Numbered from the stretch's first letter, positions 3,756 to 60,863 are shown. The stretch: DNA of 64,000 nt from Microgenomates group bacterium GW2011_GWC1_46_15 (GCA_001002285.1 LCLX01000001.1:316895-380894); one strand, 5' to 3'. Notes: generated by a model not told the origin, from the sequence alone. Program-made: numbers and translations.

Positions 3756-4769
3756 ATGAAACTTCTTGTTACGGGTGGCGCGGGATTTATTGGATCAAAC
3801 TTCGTCTTGTATTGGTTGGCACATCATTCCGAAGATGTTGTTGTAAACTTTGACGCACTTACCTATGCCGGCAACCTTGAAAACCTCAAATCAGTAGAAA
3901 AAAATCCGCAGTACTCTTTTGTGAAAGGCGACATTACCAACCCGCAGGATGTAGAAAAAGCGATGCAAGGAGTTAATATCGTTGTTCATTTTGCCGCTGA
4001 ATCGCACGTTGACCGCTCAATCATGGATCCGTCAACATTCGTCCGCACAAACGTACTCGGAACGCAGGTGTTATTGGAAGCTGCAAAAAAAGTCGGAGTA
4101 AAAAAATTCCACCACGTATCTACTGATGAGGTGTTTGGTTCACTCGAGCTTGGTTCAACGGAAAAATTCAGCGAAACAACCCCCTACAATCCCCATAGTC
4201 CGTACTCCGCATCGAAGGCTGGTTCAGATCATTTGGTGCGTGCGTACCACGACACATACGGTCTTCCAATTACCATTACAAACTGTTCGAACAACTATGG
4301 TCCATATCACTTTCCGGAAAAACTGTTTAGCTTAACCATTACAAACATCTTGGAAGGCAAAAAAGTACCGGTCTATACGCCAGGAAACCATGTTCGCGAC
4401 TGGCTCTATGTTGAAGACCACGTGCGCGCGATTGAGATGGTTTTGCAGAAGGGGAAAGACGGCGAAACATACTGTATTGGTGGCATGACGCAGGATGTGT
4501 CTAATCTTGAAGCGGTAAAGATGATTCTCCGTCTTATGGGGAAAGACGACAGTTCGATAGAGCTTGTAAAAGACCGCCCGGGACACGACGTCCGGTACGC
4601 AATTGACTGGACAAAAATCAATACAGAACTCGGGTGGTCCCCGTCTGTTTCTCTTGAGGAAGGACTGCAAAAAACCATTGCATGGTATACTGAACACCGT
4701 GACTGGTGGATGGACGTAAAAAGCGGTACATACGCCGAGTATTACACAAAACAGTACCAAGAACGGTAA
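3756..4769 (+). CDS. rmlB: dTDP-glucose 4,6-dehydratase.
   Basis: MKLLVTGGAGFIGSNF Rossmann start, YSASKAGSDHL catalytic YxxxK, and near full-length similarity to RfbB. The internal ATG at 3756 was chosen over the ORF-track start at 3630. Confidence 0.9.
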   Translation: MKLLVTGGAGFIGSNFVLYWLAHHSEDVVVNFDALTYAGNLENLKSVEKNPQYSFVKGDITNPQDVEKAMQGVNIVVHFAAESHVDRSIMDPSTFVRTNVLGTQVLLEAAKKVGVKKFHHVSTDEVFGSLELGSTEKFSETTPYNPHSPYSASKAGSDHLVRAYHDTYGLPITITNCSNNYGPYHFPEKLFSLTITNILEGKKVPVYTPGNHVRDWLYVEDHVRAIEMVLQKGKDGETYCIGGMTQDVSNLEAVKMILRLMGKDDSSIELVKDRPGHDVRYAIDWTKINTELGWSPSVSLEEGLQKTIAWYTEHRDWWMDVKSGTYAEYYTKQYQER

Positions 4770-55138: not shown

Positions 55139-55165
55139 TGGTTCAGTATACGATATACTATGCAC

Positions 55166-56065
55166 ATGAACATCCTCGTTACGGGCGGGTCTGGGTTTTT
55201 AGGAAAACATCTTTGCCGTGTGCTGGTTTCTGCCGGTCACAGCGTGTTGAACATTGATAAAAAACCATTTTCAGAAGTTGAAACAATTCAAACAGACGTA
55301 CTGGATCAGGCAAAAATCGAACAGTATTTTGCAGGAAAAGATGCGGTGTTTCACTTGGCAAGCTATATTGAGGCGGGTGAGTCGGTTGAGCAGCCGGAAA
55401 AATACCTGCAGAACAACGTTATGGGAACCCTTTCTGTTTTGGAGGCAATGCGGAAACACGATGTAAAGCGTTTTTTGTTCAGTAGCAGCGCCGCTATCTA
55501 TGGCAACCCACTTCACACACCGATTAAAGAAGATGAGCGTACTATCCCAATCAATCCGTACGGTGTAACAAAGATGGCGATGGAAGGGTTAGTATCTTCG
55601 TATGTTGAGTCGTACGGGTTTACTGGTGTCGCACTGCGATACTTCAACTTGTACGGCCCTGGAGAAGACCACGTTCCGGAAACACACGCAATTCCCCGGT
55701 TCATCCAACAAATCAATAAAGGAGAAGACGTTACAATCTGGGGCGACGGAAGCCACAAAAGAGACTTCGTATACATTGATGACATTGTCCGCGCACACCT
55801 TTTAGCGCTCGAACTTCCGCAGGGCTATCACTATATGAATCTCTCCGGGAAAAACGCAACATCGGTCATTGATGTGATTCATATGCTTGAAACGATACTT
55901 GGAAAACAGGCAAACGTGAAACATTTTGAGTTTCGGCCTGGTGATCCGCTTGAGCTTTTTGCCGATGCGTCAAAAGCAAAAGAAGTTTTGAAGTGGGAAC
56001 CACAGGTAGGATTAGAAGAAGGCCTTCAGAAAACCGTAGAGTGGTTCCGTTCACACACGGCGTGA
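55166..56065 (+). CDS. NAD-dependent sugar epimerase (GalE-like UDP-hexose 4-epimerase family).
   Basis: ILVTGGSGFLGKHL start, YGVTKMAMEG (YxxxK), and a length of about 300 aa. Confidence 0.75.
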   Translation: MNILVTGGSGFLGKHLCRVLVSAGHSVLNIDKKPFSEVETIQTDVLDQAKIEQYFAGKDAVFHLASYIEAGESVEQPEKYLQNNVMGTLSVLEAMRKHDVKRFLFSSSAAIYGNPLHTPIKEDERTIPINPYGVTKMAMEGLVSSYVESYGFTGVALRYFNLYGPGEDHVPETHAIPRFIQQINKGEDVTIWGDGSHKRDFVYIDDIVRAHLLALELPQGYHYMNLSGKNATSVIDVIHMLETILGKQANVKHFEFRPGDPLELFADASKAKEVLKWEPQVGLEEGLQKTVEWFRSHTA

Positions 56066-56122
56066 TCTACAAAAATACACAAAGATCTAGTTGATTCTTT
56101 TCCGCATTTTTTATACACTTAT

Positions 56123-56270
56123 GATCCATTCGCCGCATCGCGCGGTGACCGGCACTTCCTATCCGTTGCTTGTGAACAAAGAGCATACACTCTTTTCACA
56201 AGTATCCACGCCGAACGGATAACCTTTACACACCAAGAGTCCCTCTTCGTGGGGACAAGAAAGGCATACT
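56123..56270 (+). promoter_or_regulatory. Structured 5' leader A. It has a nested inverted repeat plus a GTCCC/GGGAC hairpin ahead of the Shine-Dalgarno, and is conserved with leader B.
   Basis: TATCCGTT(56160-67)/AACGGATA(56214-21) enclosing CTTGTGAA(56169-76)/TTCACAAG(56195-202). Hairpin GTCCC(56239-43)-8 nt-GGGAC(56252-56), then AAGAAAGG and the ATG at 56271. It shares GATCCATT, CACACCAA, GGGACAAGAAAGG and ATGCTTAC with 59562..59771. Confidence 0.4.
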
Positions 56271-56516
56271 ATGCTTACACCTGGAGATAAAAAGTGGATC
56301 AAAGGAAATTTTAAGGAAGAGTTTCCTATAGCTTTTAAAACGGCTTTCAAAGCGGCCTTTAAACCAGCATTTGATGAAGCCTTTGACGAATCATTTGGGA
56401 GAGTGTATCTGTTTCTCCGCAATGATATTGCTCAATTTAAGGACGAAATCTTGGCGGTTCTTAATCCTCGTATCCAAAACAGGGGCTCCAGAAAACCGTG
56501 GAGTGGTTTAGAATAA
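56271..56516 (+). CDS. Small protein with Phe-every-4th tetrad repeats (paralog A).
   Basis: 81 aa: MLTPGDKKWIK...AFKTAFKAAFKPAFDEAFDESFG...LRNDIAQFKDEIL. It ends 4 nt before the GT-C gene at 56521. It is paralogous to the gene at 59772. Confidence 0.55.
   Translation: MLTPGDKKWIKGNFKEEFPIAFKTAFKAAFKPAFDEAFDESFGRVYLFLRNDIAQFKDEILAVLNPRIQNRGSRKPWSGLE
56331..56396 (+). repeat. In-frame 12-bp tandem repeat (about 5.5 units) encoding (A/S)F(K/D)x tetrads.
   Basis: The units are GCTTTTAAAACG, GCTTTCAAAGCG, GCCTTTAAACCA, GCATTTGATGAA, GCCTTTGACGAA, and TCATTTGGG. Confidence 0.6.
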
Positions 56517-56520
56517 AGTA

Positions 56521-58026
56521 ATGCGGTTTTTTATTCTGCTTTTTTGTATTGGCTTAGCCCTTCGTATCTACCCGAGCTTTCATCATATTGTATTTCCGTA
56601 TGACCAAGCGCGCGACGCGCTTATGTTCCAGGACATGGTAAATCGCACACACCTGCCGCTTCTCGGTCCTGTGACCGATATTCCCGGGGTTCACCATGGC
56701 CCGCTTTTCTATCTTCTTATGATTCCGCTGTACGCACTGAGTAACAGTGATCCATGGCTTCCGGTGTTTTTTCTTATGCTGGTAAATCTTTCAACGATGA
56801 TTCCGCTCTATTTTTTCACAAAAGAAGTTTTTCATGACAAAAGAGTGACCATAATCACACTGGTATTGTTTATAGTTTCGTATGAGATGATTTCGTACTC
56901 AAAATGGATCAGCAATCCCGTACTGGCGGTTCCACTCTTTGCAACGTTTCTCCTCCTTTTATGGAGGGTATGGAAAACACAGAAAAAACAGGTGTTTTGG
57001 CTGGGGCTTGTTTTTGGACTTCTTGTGCAGAGTGAAATTGTGCTGGCTTACCTGCTTTTTCCTTGCTATATCATTTTATCTAAAGGGCGCGTACATATAA
57101 AACAGTGGCTGCTTTTTCATTTGGGCGTTGGTGTAGGAATTCTTCCGTATCTCGTTGCAGAATTAAAGTATCATTTCCAAGCAACAAACGCCCTCATCCA
57201 TTTCCTGGGAAGTACTGCACAAAAAAATCCCCTCGTTTTTCTCACAACATTTCGGCATGGTATCAGCATATTGAGTACATTGGTAAGAAATAATCTTTTT
57301 GGACTTCCCCCCATTTCTGCTTTATTAACGTTTGTGATTATCACCGTGTTGTGCTTTTTCGCGGTACGGAAAACGATACCCTCATGGAAGCCGGCTCTAC
57401 ACTTTCTATATGGCATGTTAGCGTGTGGCGTTGGTGTCCTCATGTTCGGTAAGTCTCCGGAGATATTCTTTTTTGCAGGATTCGGTTCAATTCTACTCAT
57501 CATCGCCGCGGTCTTTCTTGTCGTTATGATGAAAGAGAAGCAGTGGGAGTTTGCCGCTTTTATCACGTGTATTATTCTCGCAAGCCAGATAGCGTTGACT
57601 GTTGAACAGGCGCGTGCTGGCAACGCATATATTCAGGCGCAAAAAGGAGTGTTGTTTGACCAGCGGTTGCAGGTTCTTGATGCGATATATACGCGTGTTT
57701 CCAGTGATACACCATTTACTATTAGTGTTTTTGGGACGCCATACGGGGTACGTACATCATGGGCCTACTATTTTTCGTACTACAGTTCTCGCCAAGCGGT
57801 GATACTGCCGAAGTGGTATGGGTACACCGTGAATGGTTTTATTGGAGATGATATTCTTCCGCACGTTGATGCGCCAGCGCGAGTTCACATTGCGGTGTAT
57901 GAACCGGAGTTTTCCATTGCGCCACAATATAAGGATGAGTTTACGGCGTACCAAAACGCGCACACCACGATTGTTGAAAGATTTACACTCAATAATCACA
58001 GTATTGAAATACGAAAACCGAAATAA
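56521..58026 (+). CDS. GT-C fold membrane glycosyltransferase (paralog of 13966).
   Basis: FPYDQARDALMFQDMVNRTHLPLLGPVTDIPGVHHGPLFYLLMIPL aligns with the first loop of the 13966 gene. 501 aa, polytopic. Confidence 0.65.
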   Translation: MRFFILLFCIGLALRIYPSFHHIVFPYDQARDALMFQDMVNRTHLPLLGPVTDIPGVHHGPLFYLLMIPLYALSNSDPWLPVFFLMLVNLSTMIPLYFFTKEVFHDKRVTIITLVLFIVSYEMISYSKWISNPVLAVPLFATFLLLLWRVWKTQKKQVFWLGLVFGLLVQSEIVLAYLLFPCYIILSKGRVHIKQWLLFHLGVGVGILPYLVAELKYHFQATNALIHFLGSTAQKNPLVFLTTFRHGISILSTLVRNNLFGLPPISALLTFVIITVLCFFAVRKTIPSWKPALHFLYGMLACGVGVLMFGKSPEIFFFAGFGSILLIIAAVFLVVMMKEKQWEFAAFITCIILASQIALTVEQARAGNAYIQAQKGVLFDQRLQVLDAIYTRVSSDTPFTISVFGTPYGVRTSWAYYFSYYSSRQAVILPKWYGYTVNGFIGDDILPHVDAPARVHIAVYEPEFSIAPQYKDEFTAYQNAHTTIVERFTLNNHSIEIRKPK

Positions 58027-59505
58027 TTATTTCGCGACTTGTTTTGTTTTATACACCGTAATTGCATCGTTGATTTTCACCGTTTCTAGAATAGTAAGGT
58101 GTTTTGCGACACGGTCCCACCACGGATCAAAAAACTGTTTGTGGTCGAACTTTTCAACAATCAAGATAATAAACTCCGGCTTTTGTGTGTTTGCTGGAAC
58201 GTGCTTCTGTGGGATATATGTGATCTCCCCCGGAGCGTAACTAAACTCAGTAGGAAGCGGTTTCCCTTTTAGATTTTCTGTTAGGTACAGCAGTTGGTAT
58301 GTGTAGTCATAAATCTCAGGAACGAATTGGTATGAAGAAAATGGTTTGCCATCACTCATTGCATACGCGGTTTCAATAGCTTTGAGCTTTGGAGCCAGTA
58401 GAATACGATCGGTTTGTGCGAGAGAACGATAGTTCTGCCAAGATCCATACATACTCCCCACGCTCAAAATAAGAAATGCTATCACGATGTGAGGTTTATA
58501 CTTTGGAATAACAGACTCAACTGCTTTTGAGAAAAGATAAATCCAAAGAGGGGTAAGCGCGACTAGATAATATGGTTTGATTGGAAGGTCTAAATAGAGA
58601 AGAAATGTTCCAGCAAGAATGAGAAGAAGAACGCGGTACTCATATACTTTGCGATTTTTATAGAGAAAGAATAATACAAGCAAAACGCTTGCAACGGACA
58701 ACGCCATATTTGCTAAAGGAAGCGTGCTTAAGTGGATGTTGTCATAAAAGTACCGCGCAACCTCGACAATTCTGGCAGGTCCATCACTATTCGGTTGAAT
58801 GATTGCTGATTGTTCACGGTAGCGTGTTACAAAGTTCATAACGGCGCGGGTCTGCAGAAAATCATGACGGAGTTCAAACATCGCGGAAGGGGCGAGTGTT
58901 ATAAAGAAAGCAACGCACATCAAAACGAATTGTTTGAGTTGCATCTTCATTTTTGAAAGGAAGAGCAAAACGATCACAAGCGGGAGAAACACAATCGCAA
59001 ACGCCACTTCAAAATGGAACATAAGAGAAGAAAAAAACGCGATGCCCATAAGAACCCAAGTGTTGGCATATTTTCCAGATTTCAACTTTTTCAAAAGCAA
59101 AAAAACCGGCAAAGTACAAAAGGAAGTCATATACGGAGTCCACGCGGTTTGTTGACTCGCTATGACGCTAATAGATACAGCATACAAAAAAGCGGAAAAC
59201 CTTCCGACGTACCGGTAAAACACATACAGCGTAATAAGTGAGAGGAACAAGACACCAACAACGCTTGCAAGCGGGTGAAAACCGCCGAGGATATTAAACG
59301 GAAGGGCAATGTAGTACCACGCGGGGCCGTAAAAAAGACCGCTGATGCTTGTCGTCGGGCCAACCAATGCCGGTTTGTGCTGAAGATACATCTCCAACAT
59401 GACTAATGAGTCTTTTGCGCCGTCAAACATAAAGGGAAAGTTTCCACCAAGAATAGGAACAATACGGAGAGCAAGTGCAAAAAGAGCGAGAAGGATAAAC
59501 ACCAT
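58027..59505 (-). CDS. GT-C fold membrane glycosyltransferase (paralog of 13966 and 56521).
   Basis: FPFMFDGAKDSLVMLEMYLQHKPALVGPTTSISGLFYGPAWYYIALPF. Convergent with 56521; the two stop codons form TAATTA. Confidence 0.65.
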   Translation of the reverse strand: MVFILLALFALALRIVPILGGNFPFMFDGAKDSLVMLEMYLQHKPALVGPTTSISGLFYGPAWYYIALPFNILGGFHPLASVVGVLFLSLITLYVFYRYVGRFSAFLYAVSISVIASQQTAWTPYMTSFCTLPVFLLLKKLKSGKYANTWVLMGIAFFSSLMFHFEVAFAIVFLPLVIVLLFLSKMKMQLKQFVLMCVAFFITLAPSAMFELRHDFLQTRAVMNFVTRYREQSAIIQPNSDGPARIVEVARYFYDNIHLSTLPLANMALSVASVLLVLFFLYKNRKVYEYRVLLLILAGTFLLYLDLPIKPYYLVALTPLWIYLFSKAVESVIPKYKPHIVIAFLILSVGSMYGSWQNYRSLAQTDRILLAPKLKAIETAYAMSDGKPFSSYQFVPEIYDYTYQLLYLTENLKGKPLPTEFSYAPGEITYIPQKHVPANTQKPEFIILIVEKFDHKQFFDPWWDRVAKHLTILETVKINDAITVYKTKQVAK

Positions 59506-59561
59506 ACGTCAAGAGTATCTCACGTGTTTTCCTTTGCTACAAGCCATCGGAAGAACAGATT

Positions 59562-59771
59562 GATCCATTAAGATCATGTTGATTTTTCCACGCACACTGC
59601 GTATGCTCATCTTCCGTTCACTTCAGTGCACAGTGGACATCTCCCCTATTCGTCACTTGCGCGCAAACAAGCATGCGACAAGTGTCCACACCAACGAATA
59701 CGCACATCGTACACACGAACTGTCCCCTTGGGGACACCAATCGTCCCCCTCTGGGACAAGAAAGGAACGTC
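59562..59771 (+). promoter_or_regulatory. Structured 5' leader B, homologous to leader A. It lies in the divergent region between the minus-strand GT-C gene and small gene B.
   Basis: GTGGACA(59633-39)...CACTTG(59654-59)...CAAGTG(59689-94)/TGTCCAC(59693-99) nested inverted repeat. Hairpins GTCCCC-TT-GGGGAC (59722-35) and GTCCC-CCTCT-GGGAC (59743-57), then AAGAAAGG and the ATG at 59772. Confidence 0.4.
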
Positions 59772-60137
59772 ATGCTTACTTTAGGAGATAAAAAGTGGAT
59801 TAAGGCATATTTTGATGGGTCGTTTGACCGCAAATTTCCCTCAGCCTTCGATAAATCTTTCGATAAATCCTTCGATAAAGCCTTTAAACCAGCCTTTAAA
59901 GAAGCCTTTGGAGAAGTCCATATCTTGCTCCGCAATGATATCGCTCAGTTTAAAGATGATATTCTCACAGAACTTCATCCCCTGCGGGAAGATCATGATG
60001 TTCTCTCATATCATTCATCCGAGCACTCAGATCAACTGGAGAACCATGACCGCCGTATTACCGCGTTGGAGCGCCACAATCCCCGTTCGCCAGTAGCCGC
60101 TGTTTCAGAAAAAGTACGGTTGAAGTACAAAGCGTAA
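59772..60137 (+). CDS. Small protein with Phe-every-4th tetrad repeats (paralog B, with a C-terminal extension).
   Basis: 122 aa: MLTLGDKKWIK...FDRKFPSAFDKSFDKSFDKAFKPAFKEAFGE...LRNDIAQFKDDIL, then an acidic/His-rich tail. The ORF-track start is 59673, and the start at 59772 is supported by paralogy. Confidence 0.55.
   Translation: MLTLGDKKWIKAYFDGSFDRKFPSAFDKSFDKSFDKAFKPAFKEAFGEVHILLRNDIAQFKDDILTELHPLREDHDVLSYHSSEHSDQLENHDRRITALERHNPRSPVAAVSEKVRLKYKA
59835..59918 (+). repeat. In-frame 12-bp tandem repeat (about 7 units) encoding F(D/K)(K/P)(S/A) tetrads.
   Basis: The units are TTTCCCTCAGCC, TTCGATAAATCT, TTCGATAAATCC, TTCGATAAAGCC, TTTAAACCAGCC, TTTAAAGAAGCC, and TTTGGAGAAGTC. Confidence 0.6.
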
Positions 60138-60152
60138 GACAAAACATAATCC

Positions 60153-60167
60153 ATCAGATGCTACAAT
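60153..60167 (+). promoter_or_regulatory. Promoter-like 15-mer ATCAGATGCTACAAT (extended -10 TGnTACAAT), copy 1.
   Basis: An identical 15-mer recurs at 60849..60863. This copy lies 19 nt upstream of the ATG at 60186. Confidence 0.35.
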
Positions 60168-60185
60168 GGCAGTATACTAAGAAGT

Positions 60186-60845
60186 ATGTACCGCAAAGTG
60201 ATATCCCGGATAAATAAGAGTTACTATCTTCACAAACTAAGTGAACCGATTCGCACATTCACCGTGCGGGGGAAACTGTATCGTTATTTTTGTCACCGGT
60301 ACAACACAACATGGTTAAATGAGCGCGCAGTTGAGGTGCCGCTCATATGGTCTGAAGTGCAGCGTTACCCAAACGATCAAGTTCTTGAAGTTGGGAATGT
60401 TTTGTCACATTATTTCCCGACTACTCATCAAGTCGTTGATAAATACGAAACTGCTCCAAAAGTTATGAATCAAGACATTGTTAAATTTCATTCCAAGAAA
60501 AAATTTATGCTTATTGTAAGCATTTCGACCCTAGAACATGTTGGTTGGGACGAATCGCCCCGCGATAAACAGAAAATACTTACTGCCATAAAGGTATTAA
60601 TGCGTTTGTTGCGTCCGGGAGGCACATTGATTATGACATTACCATTAGGATACAATCCTCATTTGGATCAATATCTTCGAACAAATACATTACATTTTGA
60701 TACATCACTCTTTTTAAAACGTACTTCCGCTTTTAACACTTGGCGTGAAGTGAGTAAGCATGTTTTGGAAGAGCATCCTCAGTATAATCACCCTTTTCAA
60801 AATGCCAACGTCATTGTCATCGGTACGTATCGAAAAGAACTATAG
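60186..60845 (+). CDS. Putative SAM-dependent methyltransferase-like protein.
   Basis: VLEVGNVLSHY (degenerate motif I) and ISTLEHVGWDE...LLRPGGTLIMTLP (motif II/III-like). 219 aa. Confidence 0.4.
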   Translation: MYRKVISRINKSYYLHKLSEPIRTFTVRGKLYRYFCHRYNTTWLNERAVEVPLIWSEVQRYPNDQVLEVGNVLSHYFPTTHQVVDKYETAPKVMNQDIVKFHSKKKFMLIVSISTLEHVGWDESPRDKQKILTAIKVLMRLLRPGGTLIMTLPLGYNPHLDQYLRTNTLHFDTSLFLKRTSAFNTWREVSKHVLEEHPQYNHPFQNANVIVIGTYRKEL

Positions 60846-60848
60846 TTG

Positions 60849-60863
60849 ATCAGATGCTACAAT
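60849..60863 (+). promoter_or_regulatory. Promoter-like 15-mer ATCAGATGCTACAAT, copy 2, positioned for a leaderless transcript.
   Basis: TACAAT ends 6 nt before the ATG at 60870. The same -10-to-ATG spacing occurs at TGATACAAT (37572..37580) and the ATG at 37587. Confidence 0.35.

What the first reader, a model, noticed from the sequence alone, without database searches (positions are those of the whole stretch)
56123..56270. Conserved, highly structured ~150-200 nt leaders upstream of both small repeat-protein genes
The regions 56123..56270 and 59562..59771 share the same element order. A GATCCATT block comes first, then a long nested inverted repeat of about 65 nt (TATCCGTT/CTTGTGAA...TTCACAAG/AACGGATA in A; GTGGACA/CACTTG...CAAGTG/TGTCCAC in B). 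CACACCAA follows, then one or two GTCCC-loop-GGGAC hairpins, then GGGACAAGAAAGG, 6 nt, and ATGCTTAC. The leaders appear to keep stem-loop structure while the stem sequences differ, which suggests a cis-regulatory RNA such as a riboswitch, attenuator, thermometer or protein-binding leader. A simple promoter would not need this.
Basis: seen in the sequence. Interest (0 to 1): 0.55.

Follow-up and report, generated by a model that had tools for sequence, protein, structure and literature searches.

The report
Structured mRNA leaders of paralogous genes
Two paralogous small coiled-coil protein genes in a Buchananbacteria-like (candidate phyla radiation) genome each have a conserved, hairpin-rich, non-coding leader of about 145-160 nt between promoter and start codon; more distant relatives of the gene have no such leader, so it is probably a lineage-specific regulatory RNA whose trigger is unknown.

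Summary
Both small genes (A 56271-56516, B 59772-60137) are preceded by homologous non-coding leaders. Each has a weak hairpin P1, a long hairpin P2 with a conserved 9-10 nt 3'-side bulge (UCCACRCC), an ACACAC linker, one (A) or two (B) GUCCC/GGGAC hairpins, then AA-GAAAGG-N6-AUG.

Six distinct leader sequences from related metagenomic contigs keep P2 fully paired, with compensatory and G·U changes. The leaders are 84-99% identical, while four-fold codon sites of flanking genes are only 53-77% identical. Frame-shifting indels rule out coding. A covariance model built from A-type leaders alone finds the B-type leaders.

No Rfam family matches, there is no terminator, and modelling shows no ribosome-binding-site occlusion. 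Twenty-four of 30 more distant homologues look leaderless.

Best reading: a lineage-restricted, cis-acting structured 5' UTR, probably a platform for a trans-acting factor. The mechanism is unresolved and the transcription start is only inferred. This is a new RNA motif of a known kind, of moderate interest.

The parts
56091..56119 (+). Inferred promoter of copy A: -35 TTGATT (56091-96), 17-nt spacer, -10 TACACT (56114-19), preceded by the AAAGATC block (56081-87)
   Evidence: Both hexamers are invariant in three A-type orthologues while the spacer varies. The AAAGATnnnGTTGA block is shared with the promoters of homologues L010, L011, L014 and L030. The consensus scan scores it below its threshold (8 of 12). 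The transcription start (~56124-56127) is inferred.
56126..56270 (+). Leader A, a non-coding 5' UTR of about 145 nt
   Evidence: Folds at z = -3.9. It is 93% (vs L001) and 90% (vs L043) identical, against 53-65% identity at four-fold sites of flanking genes.
56130..56148 (+). P1 hairpin of A (UCGCCGC / GCGGUGA, loop AUCGC)
   Evidence: Aligns without gaps to B's GUUCACU/AGUGGAC, with one C-G to U-A double change. It is weak on its own (z = -0.8).
56160..56221 (+). P2 long hairpin of A: outer stem 56160-66/56215-21, inner stem 56167-76/56195-204, variable apical hairpin, conserved 3'-side bulge UCCACGCCGA 56205-14
   Evidence: The same architecture is the minimum-energy fold in all five sequences folded alone. 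It is 100% paired across six sequences, with double and G·U changes. The apical stem changes from GAG/CUC to GAA/UUC in L001.
56239..56256 (+). P3 hairpin of A (GUCCC-UCUUCGUG-GGGAC), ending 2 nt before the SD
   Evidence: z = -3.0. The stem is nearly invariant, so it gives no covariation. L043 shifts register to UCCCUC/GAGGGA.
56259..56273 (+). SD-like GAAAGG (56259-64), 6-nt spacer, ATG 56271
   Evidence: AAGAAAGG is invariant in all six leaders.
56271..56516 (+). Small gene A (81 aa), truncated relative to its 127-150 aa orthologues
59579..59607 (+). Inferred promoter of copy B: -35 TTGATT (59579-84), 17-nt spacer, -10 TATGCT (59602-07)
   Evidence: Both hexamers are invariant in three B-type orthologues. 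The spacer is only 76% identical between the window and L001.
59614..59771 (+). Leader B, a non-coding 5' UTR of about 158 nt
   Evidence: z = -3.9. It is 98.8% identical to L001 and 84.5% to L044, against 66-77% at four-fold sites. L044 has +2, +2 and -1 indels, so it cannot be coding.
59616..59638 (+). P1 hairpin of B (GUUCACU / AGUGGAC)
   Evidence: Weak on its own (z = -0.1).
59647..59700 (+). P2 long hairpin of B: outer stem 59647-53/59694-700, inner stem 59654-59/59679-84, bulge UCCACACCA 59685-93
   Evidence: L044 changes CACUUG/CAAGUG to UGUUUG/CAAGCG (A-U to G-C, plus two C-G to U·G changes).
59722..59757 (+). Two tandem P3 hairpins of B (59722-35 and 59743-57); these can also fold as one nested hairpin
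   Evidence: z = -3.95.
59760..59774 (+). SD-like GAAAGG (59760-65), 6-nt spacer, ATG 59772
59772..60137 (+). Small gene B (121 aa), predicted to be one long alpha-helix; the family has no Pfam or NCBIfam match
56016..56046 (+). Left copy of the direct repeat that brackets cassette A (3' end of the epimerase gene)
   Evidence: (D6).
56478..56508 (+). Right copy of the direct repeat. It reads as a relic of the epimerase C-terminus (..GLQKTVEWFRIK*) whose stop overlaps the start of the PMT_2 gene.

Best explanation
Each region is the 5' untranslated leader of the mRNA of a small coiled-coil protein gene. It is transcribed from a promoter about 150 nt upstream of the start codon.

The leader consists of self-contained hairpin modules:
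- P1;
- a long P2 with a sequence-conserved 9-10 nt bulge;
- an ACACAC linker;
- one or two GUCCC/GGGAC hairpins that abut a weak Shine-Dalgarno.

The leader arose in one Buchananbacteria-like lineage, in a gene family that otherwise looks leaderless. It was copied together with the promoter and the gene when the cassette duplicated.

It acts in cis on the mRNA. The most likely mode is as a recognition platform for a trans-acting factor, a protein and conceivably the gene's own product. That factor would tune translation initiation or mRNA lifetime of the small gene, and perhaps of the glycosyltransferase genes downstream. It is unlikely to be a switch that occludes the ribosome-binding site by itself.

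**Shown:** conservation, non-coding status, a shared fold with compensatory changes, and absence from homologues.

**Inferred:** the transcription start, the strand of action, and every step of the mechanism.
For: - **Homology and shared fold.** A model built from A-type leaders only (P1-P2-linker) finds the B-type leaders as the best non-self hits, in the same register as my alignment.
- **Pairing.** 92% of cells pair, against 32-50% when partners are slid. P2 pairs in 78/78 cells. Pair 49-104 is C-G or U-A, 53-90 is U-A, C-G or U·G, 54-89 is G·U, A-U or G-C, and 19-29 is C-G or U-A.
- **Purifying selection.** Leader identity is 93%, 90%, 98.8% and 84.5%, against four-fold-site identity of 53-77% in the flanking genes. 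The promoter spacer right next to leader B is only 76% identical.
- **Where the changes fall.** They cluster in the apical P2 loop, the hairpin loops and the SD-AUG spacer.
- **Not coding.** L044 has +2, +2 and -1 indels, and the candidate uORFs in A and B use different frames.
- **Promoter placement.** Conserved -35 and -10 hexamers with a variable spacer lie upstream of the structure. There is no promoter-like site next to the ATG.
- **Lineage-specific acquisition.** In 24 of 30 non-redundant homologues the best -10 hexamer ends 6-9 nt before the ATG. Model R1 finds no leader in 35 other loci or elsewhere in the window. Syntenic loci at 49-52% identity have neither the small gene nor the leader.
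- **Why a factor platform rather than a self-contained switch.** Sequence is conserved in unpaired parts (bulge UCCACRCC, ACACAC, AAGAAAGG), and RBS accessibility equals that of shuffled controls.
Against: - There is no transcript evidence. The promoters are below the consensus-scan threshold.
- Only six distinct sequences are available, representing two paralogues and about three strains. The alignment used for pair counting was made by hand with the structure in mind, which biases the counts.
- P1 is thermodynamically weak (z = -0.1 to -0.8) and P3 is almost invariant, so the real covariation rests on P2.
- The minus strand folds with lower free energy in five of six sequences. The same helices are 88.3% paired on the minus strand against 92.0% on the plus strand, and only the inner stem of P2 clearly separates the strands (86% vs 100%).
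- No binding factor, ligand or expression platform was identified.
- The small protein has no known RNA-binding domain.
- Gene A in this window is truncated, so copy A may be decaying.
Confidence: 0.6

Rival explanations
1. A self-contained conformational switch (RNA thermometer or small-molecule riboswitch). The 5'-terminal UCCRUUC, or another pyrimidine stretch, pairs with the SD GAAAGGA and closes the leader. Heat or a ligand releases it.
For: RNAalifold proposes the 5'-UCC.UUC / GAA.GGA closing helix. It is 97% paired in the six sequences, with one C-to-U change that keeps a U·G pair. Conserved unpaired nucleotides in the P2 bulge and the linker could form a binding pocket.
Against: The helix is 3+3 bp around an A·A or G·A mismatch, it closes a ~140-nt multiloop, and it shows no change on both sides. 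Different pyrimidine stretches pair with the SD in the minimum-energy fold of each sequence. The SD-to-AUG unpaired probability (0.42-0.63) does not differ from shuffled-upstream controls. No Rfam riboswitch or thermometer matches. The hairpins sit in series, with no multi-helix junction. The regulated gene gives no hint of a ligand, and the distribution is very narrow.
Confidence: 0.15
2. A constitutive 5' UTR that only stabilises or processes the mRNA, through 5'-proximal hairpins that protect against 5'-end-dependent RNases or a long P2 that serves as an RNase III site. There would be no signal-dependent regulation.
For: P1 begins within about 5-10 nt of the inferred 5' end. P2 in A has about 22 stacked pairs. 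The RBS is neither hidden nor specially exposed. The gene family elsewhere pairs near-consensus promoters with leaderless starts, which fits high expression.
Against: A pure stabiliser needs structure, not sequence. Here unpaired segments (UCCACRCC, ACACAC) are as conserved as the stems, and overall identity far exceeds synonymous-site identity. This rival overlaps with the best explanation and cannot be separated from it by computation.
Confidence: 0.15
3. The functional molecule is not the plus-strand mRNA leader. It is either a DNA-level element (operator palindromes, a recombination site of the inserted cassette) or an antisense RNA from the minus strand.
For: The minus strand has lower folding energy in five of six sequences, and its helices are 88% paired. 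Cassette A is bracketed by a 26-31 nt direct repeat, so recombination did occur here. GTCCC/GGGAC are perfect short palindromes.
Against: P2 tolerates G·U in four pairs and never A·C. It pairs in 78/78 cells on the plus strand but has six broken cells on the minus strand. Stems 50-60 nt apart with a variable apical part fit RNA hairpins better than operators. No minus-strand promoter-like site was reported in either leader. The integron attC core order (RYYYAAC ... GTTRRRY) is not met on either strand. There are only two copies, always in the same place relative to the paralogous gene.
Confidence: 0.07
4. A non-functional relic. The segment would be filler carried along when the cassette inserted, and its apparent conservation would reflect recent recombination between strains.
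For: Divergence between the strains is mosaic: four-fold-site identity is 93% in the PMT_2 gene but 65-77% next door. The distribution is very narrow.
Against: Leader B is 98.8% identical, yet it is flanked by a 76%-identical promoter spacer and by a gene with 66% four-fold identity. The same excess conservation appears in three independent comparisons (W/L001, W/L044, W/L043) and in both paralogues. Substitutions preserve pairing.
Confidence: 0.03

Closest known systems
Protein-binding autoregulatory mRNA leaders (for example ribosomal-protein leaders such as L10, S15 and L20; phage T4 gene 32 and regA targets). Comparison from general knowledge.
   Same: A structured 5' UTR directly upstream of the SD, with sequence-conserved unpaired nucleotides displayed on a covarying helix. 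It is narrow and lineage-specific, and paralogous copies travel with the gene.
   Different: No binding protein is known. The downstream product is an uncharacterised helical protein with no RNA-binding domain. There is no mimicry of a known RNA target and no Rfam leader family match.
5'-UTR mRNA stabilisers (E. coli ompA leader, B. subtilis aprE and SP82 leaders). Comparison from general knowledge.
   Same: A leader of about 130-160 nt made of independent stem-loops, one close to the 5' end and one abutting the RBS. The RBS is not occluded.
   Different: Those elements depend on structure and position rather than on conserved single-stranded sequence. Here the unpaired segments are strongly conserved.
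RNA thermometers (ROSE, fourU). Comparison from general knowledge.
   Same: A hairpin-rich leader ending at the SD, and a possible pyrimidine-SD pairing.
   Different: The SD is not inside a conserved imperfect helix, there is no U(U/C)GCU or UUUU anti-SD motif, and accessibility equals the shuffled controls.
Orphan cis-regulatory RNA motifs found by comparative genomics of intergenic regions (Rfam 'Cis-reg' candidates)
   Same: Discovered the same way: a long intergenic region in a compact genome, a conserved fold, some covariation and an unknown ligand.
   Different: It is not in Rfam 15, and so far it is known from only one genus-level lineage and two paralogous loci.
Processive-antitermination leader RNAs of polysaccharide operons (EAR of the Bacillus eps operon). 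Comparison from general knowledge.
   Same: A structured RNA at the head of, or within, a cluster of glycosyltransferase and polysaccharide genes. Copy B heads the methyltransferase-GT2-DUF2304-epimerase-GT2 string.
   Different: There is no sequence or structure match to EAR in Rfam. No terminators to be overridden were identified, and the element sits in front of a small ORF rather than between enzyme genes.

Membership tests
Any curated Rfam family (riboswitches, ribozymes, leaders, thermometers, sRNAs) | Covariance-model score at or above the family's gathering threshold | tested here: not met
   No match in the 64 kb window at gathering thresholds. At E <= 10 over 55950-60250, the only hit is RSV_PBS on the minus strand (18.6 bits against a threshold of 47; E = 4.8). 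Orthologous loci give nothing either.
Transcription attenuator (intrinsic terminator in the leader) | A G+C-rich hairpin followed by a U-tract between the transcription start and the start codon, with an alternative anti-terminator | tested here: not met
   No plus-strand terminator-like site lies in 56066-56270 or 59506-59771. P3 is followed by AAGAAAGG, not by U residues.
RNA thermometer (ROSE / fourU type) | SD and/or AUG held in a conserved, imperfect helix | tested here: not met
   The SD lies 2 nt outside P3. The candidate 5'-UCCRUUC/GAAAGGA helix is invariant and weak. SD-to-AUG unpaired probability is 0.42-0.63, within the shuffled controls.
Riboswitch (generic) | A conserved aptamer fold supported by covariation | tested here: inconclusive
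   P2 and P1 show compensatory changes, but the architecture is hairpins in series without a multi-helix junction, and there are only six sequences.
Riboswitch (generic) | An expression platform (terminator or SD-sequestering helix) coupled to the aptamer | tested here: not met
Riboswitch (generic) | Specific ligand binding | not testable with these tools
   Needs in-line probing or ITC. The gene context (an uncharacterised coiled-coil protein) suggests no ligand.
Structured cis-acting 5' UTR element (generic kind) | Lies between the promoter and the start codon, on the coding strand, and is non-coding | tested here: met
   Conserved -35 and -10 hexamers with a variable spacer lie upstream. 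There is no proximal promoter. Frame-breaking indels occur in L044. The transcription start itself is inferred.
Structured cis-acting 5' UTR element (generic kind) | A fold conserved through compensatory substitutions, and sequence under purifying selection | tested here: met
   with the caveat of few sequences and a hand-made alignment.
Structured cis-acting 5' UTR element (generic kind) | Demonstrated effect on expression of the downstream gene | not testable with these tools
   Needs reporter fusions or transcriptomics.
MITE or dispersed repeat element | Many dispersed copies with terminal inverted repeats and target-site duplications, independent of gene context | tested here: not met
   There are only two copies in 64 kb, both in the same position before paralogous genes. 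Pattern scans of genome and viral collections gave only chance-like hits without the hairpin partner.
Integron attC site | Inverse core RYYYAAC at the 5' end and core GTTRRRY at the 3' end of an imperfect hairpin | tested here: not met
   Read directly from the sequence: P2 has ..CCGTTGC.. on its 5' arm and ..GCCGAACGG.. on its 3' arm, so GTT precedes AAC on both strands. An integrase was not searched for.

The most novel reading that the evidence does not exclude
The leader is a new class of ligand- or protein-responsive RNA. It would have converted an ancestrally leaderless, constitutively expressed small gene into a regulated one. It would travel with the promoter and gene as a self-contained cassette, inserted at the head of or inside cell-envelope glycosylation operons of a CPR bacterium. 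Through that position it would control surface glycosylation in response to an unknown signal.
Probability: 0.12. Interest if true: 0.6.

Novelty: new member of a known kind. Interest (0 to 1): 0.36.

Why it matters
Candidate phyla radiation bacteria have compact genomes and very few described regulatory RNAs. This small-gene family appears leaderless nearly everywhere else, so a strongly conserved 150-nt structured leader marks a gain of post-transcriptional control that can be dated.

If the leader is functional, it offers a compact system for two questions: how a leaderless gene becomes leadered, and what controls the adjacent glycosyltransferase cluster in an uncultivated episymbiont lineage.

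Its reach is limited. It is known from one narrow lineage, in front of a protein of unknown function, and no mechanism has been demonstrated.

Tried and rejected
- **Known RNA families.** Rfam at gathering thresholds and at E <= 10 gave nothing.
- **Plain MAFFT plus RNAalifold** of the A and B leaders misaligned the 3' half of P2 and missed it. I replaced it with a structure-guided alignment, entered with N-padding so the tools would keep the columns.
- **Wider homologues of the leader.**
  - A protein-guided scan of GTDB genomes found no relative. A second attempt with a broader alignment errored.
  - The metagenome scan returned 35 loci, but only L008 (same lineage) has the leader.
  - The DNA pattern for the P2 3' half in genome contigs gave 16 hits from unrelated phyla, about the chance number, and none has the complementary 5' arm.
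  - The pattern GTCCC..GGGACAAGAAAGG in viral contigs gave 7 unrelated hits.
  - Neighbour-guided retrieval through the 492-aa membrane protein reached only 49-52%-identical loci, which lack the cassette.
- **Coding hypotheses.** The uORFs (ATG 56121, 33 codons; ATG 59603) and the long antisense ORFs (56159-56422 and 59618-59935, minus strand) are rejected. They use different frames in A and B, and L044 has frame-breaking indels.
It is real but specific to B and competes with P1 and P2, so it is not part of the conserved fold.
- **P2 bulge pairing with the coding region.** RUCCAC in the bulge is complementary to GUGGAU at codons 8-10 (K-W-I) in both paralogues. This is a 6-nt match that chance could produce, with no compensatory evidence. 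I left it as an idea only.
- **Function of the small protein.** Pfam, NCBIfam and PHROGs gave only weak coiled-coil noise. AlphaFold2 predicts one long helix. I did not run a fold search because it would return generic coiled coils.
- **Literature.** Searches found no description of this motif or protein family.

Full report
**What is there**

The window is a compact genome with 43% G+C. Its closest public relatives are contigs assigned to Candidatus Buchananbacteria, in the candidate phyla radiation.

Two small plus-strand genes are paralogues, 57% identical over 70 residues, and they are the only two copies in the window:
- A, 56271-56516, 81 aa
- B, 59772-60137, 121 aa

They sit inside a cluster of envelope-glycosylation genes that includes an epimerase, PMT_2-like membrane proteins, GT2 glycosyltransferases and DUF2304. 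The stretches in front of them are 205 nt and 266 nt long, among the longest non-coding stretches in a window where most genes abut or overlap.

**Checking the observation**

- GGGACAAGAAAGG-N6-ATGCTTAC occurs at 56252 and 59753 and nowhere else.
- GTCCC-loop-GGGAC hairpins precede it, one in A and two in B.
- The long nested inverted repeat in A is correct.
- Both leaders fold better than dinucleotide shuffles, with z = -3.86 and -3.93.

Three correspondences in B were wrong.

First, comparison with orthologous contigs shows a promoter-like pair in each copy whose hexamers are invariant while the spacer varies:
- A: TTGATT 56091-96, 17 nt, TACACT 56114-19
- B: TTGATT 59579-84, 17 nt, TATGCT 59602-07

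GATCCATT lies after the -10 in A but before the -35 in B. The true counterpart in B is CTTCCGTT (59611-18).

Second, the B stem homologous to TATCCGT/ACGGATA is TATTCGT/ACGAATA (59647-53 / 59694-700). It is not GTGGACA/TGTCCAC.

Third, CACACCAA in B lies inside P2.

**Common architecture**

From the inferred transcription start (~56126 in A, ~59614 in B) to the ATG, both leaders contain:
- a 5' UCCRUUC segment;
- P1, which is 7 bp;
- a pyrimidine-rich linker;
- P2, which has a 7-bp outer stem, a 9-10 nt bulge UCCACRCC(G)A on the 3' side only, an inner stem of at least 6 bp, and a variable apical part;
- a linker containing ACACAC;
- P3 (GUCCC/GGGAC), which is duplicated in tandem in B;
- AA, then GAAAGG, then 6 nt, then AUG.

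P2 adopts this same architecture as the minimum-energy fold in all five sequences folded separately. The z-scores are -5.6, -2.8, -3.7, -3.6 and -1.0.

**Are A and B leaders homologous beyond the SD region?**

BLASTN aligns only about 35 nt, and MAFFT plus RNAalifold missed P2.

I ran a non-circular test. A covariance model built only from the three A-type leaders, truncated before P3 and the SD (R2), was run without filters over the window plus four loci, about 83 kb on both strands. It placed the B-type leaders as the best non-self hits:
- L044 at 28.1 bits, E~3e-5
- window 59609-59717 at 25.4 bits, E~1.6e-4
- the next hit at E = 0.24, which is the reverse strand of A's own P2

The model's alignment uses the same P1 and P2 registers that I had assigned by hand.

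**Evidence for selection on an RNA fold**

Related contigs gave six distinct leaders: W_A, L001_A, L043_A, W_B, L001_B and L044_B.

On the structure-guided alignment A9:
- 92.0% of 162 cells are standard pairs, against 32-50% with the 3' partners slid by 1-3 columns.
- Three pairs change on both sides.
- P2 is paired in all 78 cells.
- Pair 49-104 is C-G in A and U-A in B.
- Pair 53-90 is U-A, C-G or U·G.
- Pair 54-89 is G·U, A-U or G-C.
- Pair 55-88 is C-G or U·G.
- Pair 48-105 is U-A or U·G.

The apical stem of P2 in A also changes from GAG/CUC to GAA/UUC.

Caveats:
- The alignment was built with the structure in mind.
- The six sequences represent two paralogues in about three strains.
- P1 is weak on its own.
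- P3 never varies informatively.

**Conservation**

| Comparison | Leader identity | Four-fold-site identity in flanking genes |
|---|---|---|
| Window vs L001 | A 93.3%, B 98.8% | epimerase 64.8%, gene B 65.6%, 492-aa gene 77.2% |
| Window vs L044 | B 84.5% | 67-70% |
| Window vs L043 | A 90% | 53-61% |

In the window vs L001 comparison, the promoter spacer of B is only 76% identical.

The PMT_2 gene is an outlier at 93% four-fold identity, so recombination mosaicism exists. Even so, a 160-nt island of near-identity bounded by diverged sequence on both sides, seen in three comparisons and in both paralogues, indicates purifying selection.

L044 differs from the window's leader B by +2, +2 and -1 indels. 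The candidate uORFs and the long antisense ORFs are in different frames in A and B. The segment is therefore non-coding.

**Strand**

Context argues for the plus strand, given the promoter, the gene orientation and the lack of any promoter next to the ATG.

Pair statistics favour it only modestly. The plus strand is 92.0% paired and the minus strand 88.3%. The P2 inner stem is 100% paired on the plus strand and 86% on the minus strand.

Total folding energy is actually lower for the G-rich minus strand in five of six sequences. Thermodynamics therefore does not decide the strand, and an antisense role is not excluded.

**Where the leader came from**

An exhaustive HMMER search finds about 110 cluster representatives of this small-protein family at E <= 0.001. 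Their pattern is MLTKxD, then (FDxK)n repeats, then LRNDIAxFKDEIL..L.PLxEDH.VL....EH.D.LENH..RI..LE. The family has no Pfam or NCBIfam model and is predicted to be one long helix.

In 24 of 30 non-redundant metagenomic homologues, the best -35/-10 pair ends 6-9 nt before the ATG, so the mRNAs look leaderless. The closer homologues share the AAAGATnnnGTTGA -35 block with the window's promoters, but it sits about 45 nt from the ATG instead of 175-190 nt.

Model R1 finds the leader only in the Buchananbacteria-like contigs. Loci syntenic through the 492-aa membrane protein at 49-52% identity have neither the small gene nor the leader.

Copy A is bracketed by a direct repeat of the epimerase 3' end, 31 nt at 84% identity in the window and 26/26 identical in L001. 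Downstream of gene A, frame 0 still reads ..GLQKTVEWFRIK*, with the stop overlapping the PMT_2 start.

Promoter, leader and gene were therefore inserted as a unit into the end of the epimerase gene. The leader is a lineage-specific acquisition that was duplicated together with its gene.

**How it most likely works**

- There is no terminator, so it is not an attenuator.
- No curated family matches.
- RNAalifold proposes a 5'-UCCRUUC/GAAAGGA closing helix that would cover the SD. It is 97% paired but invariant and weak.
- Each sequence's minimum-energy fold pairs the SD with a different pyrimidine stretch.
- The SD-to-AUG unpaired probability (0.42-0.63) is indistinguishable from leaders whose upstream part was shuffled.

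The hairpins are therefore self-contained modules, and they neither hide nor specially expose the ribosome-binding site.

The unpaired bulge, the ACACAC linker and AAGAAAGG are strongly conserved in sequence. Together with the points above, this favours a platform recognised by a trans-acting factor that modulates translation or mRNA life. The factor would most plausibly be a protein and possibly the gene's own product. A purely structural stabiliser or processing role is the main alternative. None of these steps is demonstrated.

**Comparison with known systems and novelty**

In function, the leader resembles protein-binding autoregulatory leaders or ompA-type 5' stabilisers. It is not a member of any Rfam family. 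It fails the defining features of attenuators, thermometers, attC sites and MITEs (see the membership table).

It is best filed as a new RNA motif of a known kind, a cis-acting structured 5' UTR. It is restricted to one CPR lineage.

Interest is moderate. The gain of a leader in a family that otherwise looks leaderless, and its position at the head of glycosylation genes, are attractive. However, the distribution is narrow, the regulated protein is uncharacterised and the mechanism is open.

Noticed in passing
window 56016-56046 and 56478-56508 (also L001 3745-3770 / 4421-4446): Leader plus gene A is bracketed by a 26-31 nt direct repeat of the epimerase 3' end. Downstream of gene A, frame 0 still encodes ..GLQKTVEWFRIK*, with TAATG overlapping the PMT_2 start. 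The promoter-leader-gene unit was therefore inserted into the last codons of the epimerase gene.
   Followed up: partly
window 56271-56516: Gene A in this strain is 81 aa, against 127-150 aa in orthologues (P0004, P0002). An internal deletion removes the conserved HPLxEDH...LENHDxRITALE module, and the tail is read in another frame. It may be a decaying paralogue.
   Followed up: partly
window 60155-60167 and 60851-60863, flanking gene 60186-60845: The 219-aa methyltransferase-like gene is absent from relatives L001-L005. It is bracketed by a 13-nt direct repeat, CAGATGCTACAAT, which looks like an extended -10 promoter element 7 nt before ATG 60870. This is a second cassette-like insertion flanked by a direct repeat.
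   Followed up: partly
loci L009-L042 (homologues of the small protein): In 24 of 30 non-redundant homologues, a near-consensus TTGACA-17-TAnnnT promoter ends 6-9 nt before the ATG. The family looks leaderless almost everywhere else. Genomic neighbours are not conserved (next to a tRNA, SUF/DUF59 genes and others).
   Followed up: yes
L009, L010, L011, L012, L015, L030, about 55-90 nt upstream of the -35: An invariant non-coding block, TTTTTGTAATnnnnnTGTAAGnAT...TGTA, lies upstream of the promoter of the closer homologues. L010, L011 and L030 additionally share about 200 nt of conserved upstream sequence with a GGGTAGATCGGGACTACCC hairpin. Rfam gives no match. Unexplained.
   Followed up: no
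window 56331-56402 and 59844-59927: The N-terminal halves of both small genes are made of 12-nt (4-residue) tandem repeats (AFKx / FDKx). Repeat number varies widely across the family, from 0 to more than 8.
   Followed up: no
window 56521-58026 versus 55160-56065 and 58027-59505: Four-fold-site identity to strain L001 is 93% in the PMT_2 gene but 65-77% in its immediate neighbours. This suggests a recent recombination tract between strains.
   Followed up: no
window 56205-56210 / 56293-56298 and 59684-59689 / 59794-59799: RUCCAC, spanning the junction of the P2 inner stem and the conserved bulge, is complementary to GUGGAU in codons 8-10 (K-W-I) of the downstream ORF in both paralogues. In A, the 5'-terminal UGAUCCA is also complementary to UGGAUCA at the same site (seen in the minimum-energy fold). 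These are 6-7 nt matches that could be chance.
   Followed up: no
L069, L070, L071: More distant syntenic loci (membrane protein at 49-52% identity) have the divergent GT2/DUF2304 or DUF1653 genes only 36-71 nt away, with no small gene. The whole B cassette is therefore also an insertion, at a divergent promoter region.
   Followed up: partly
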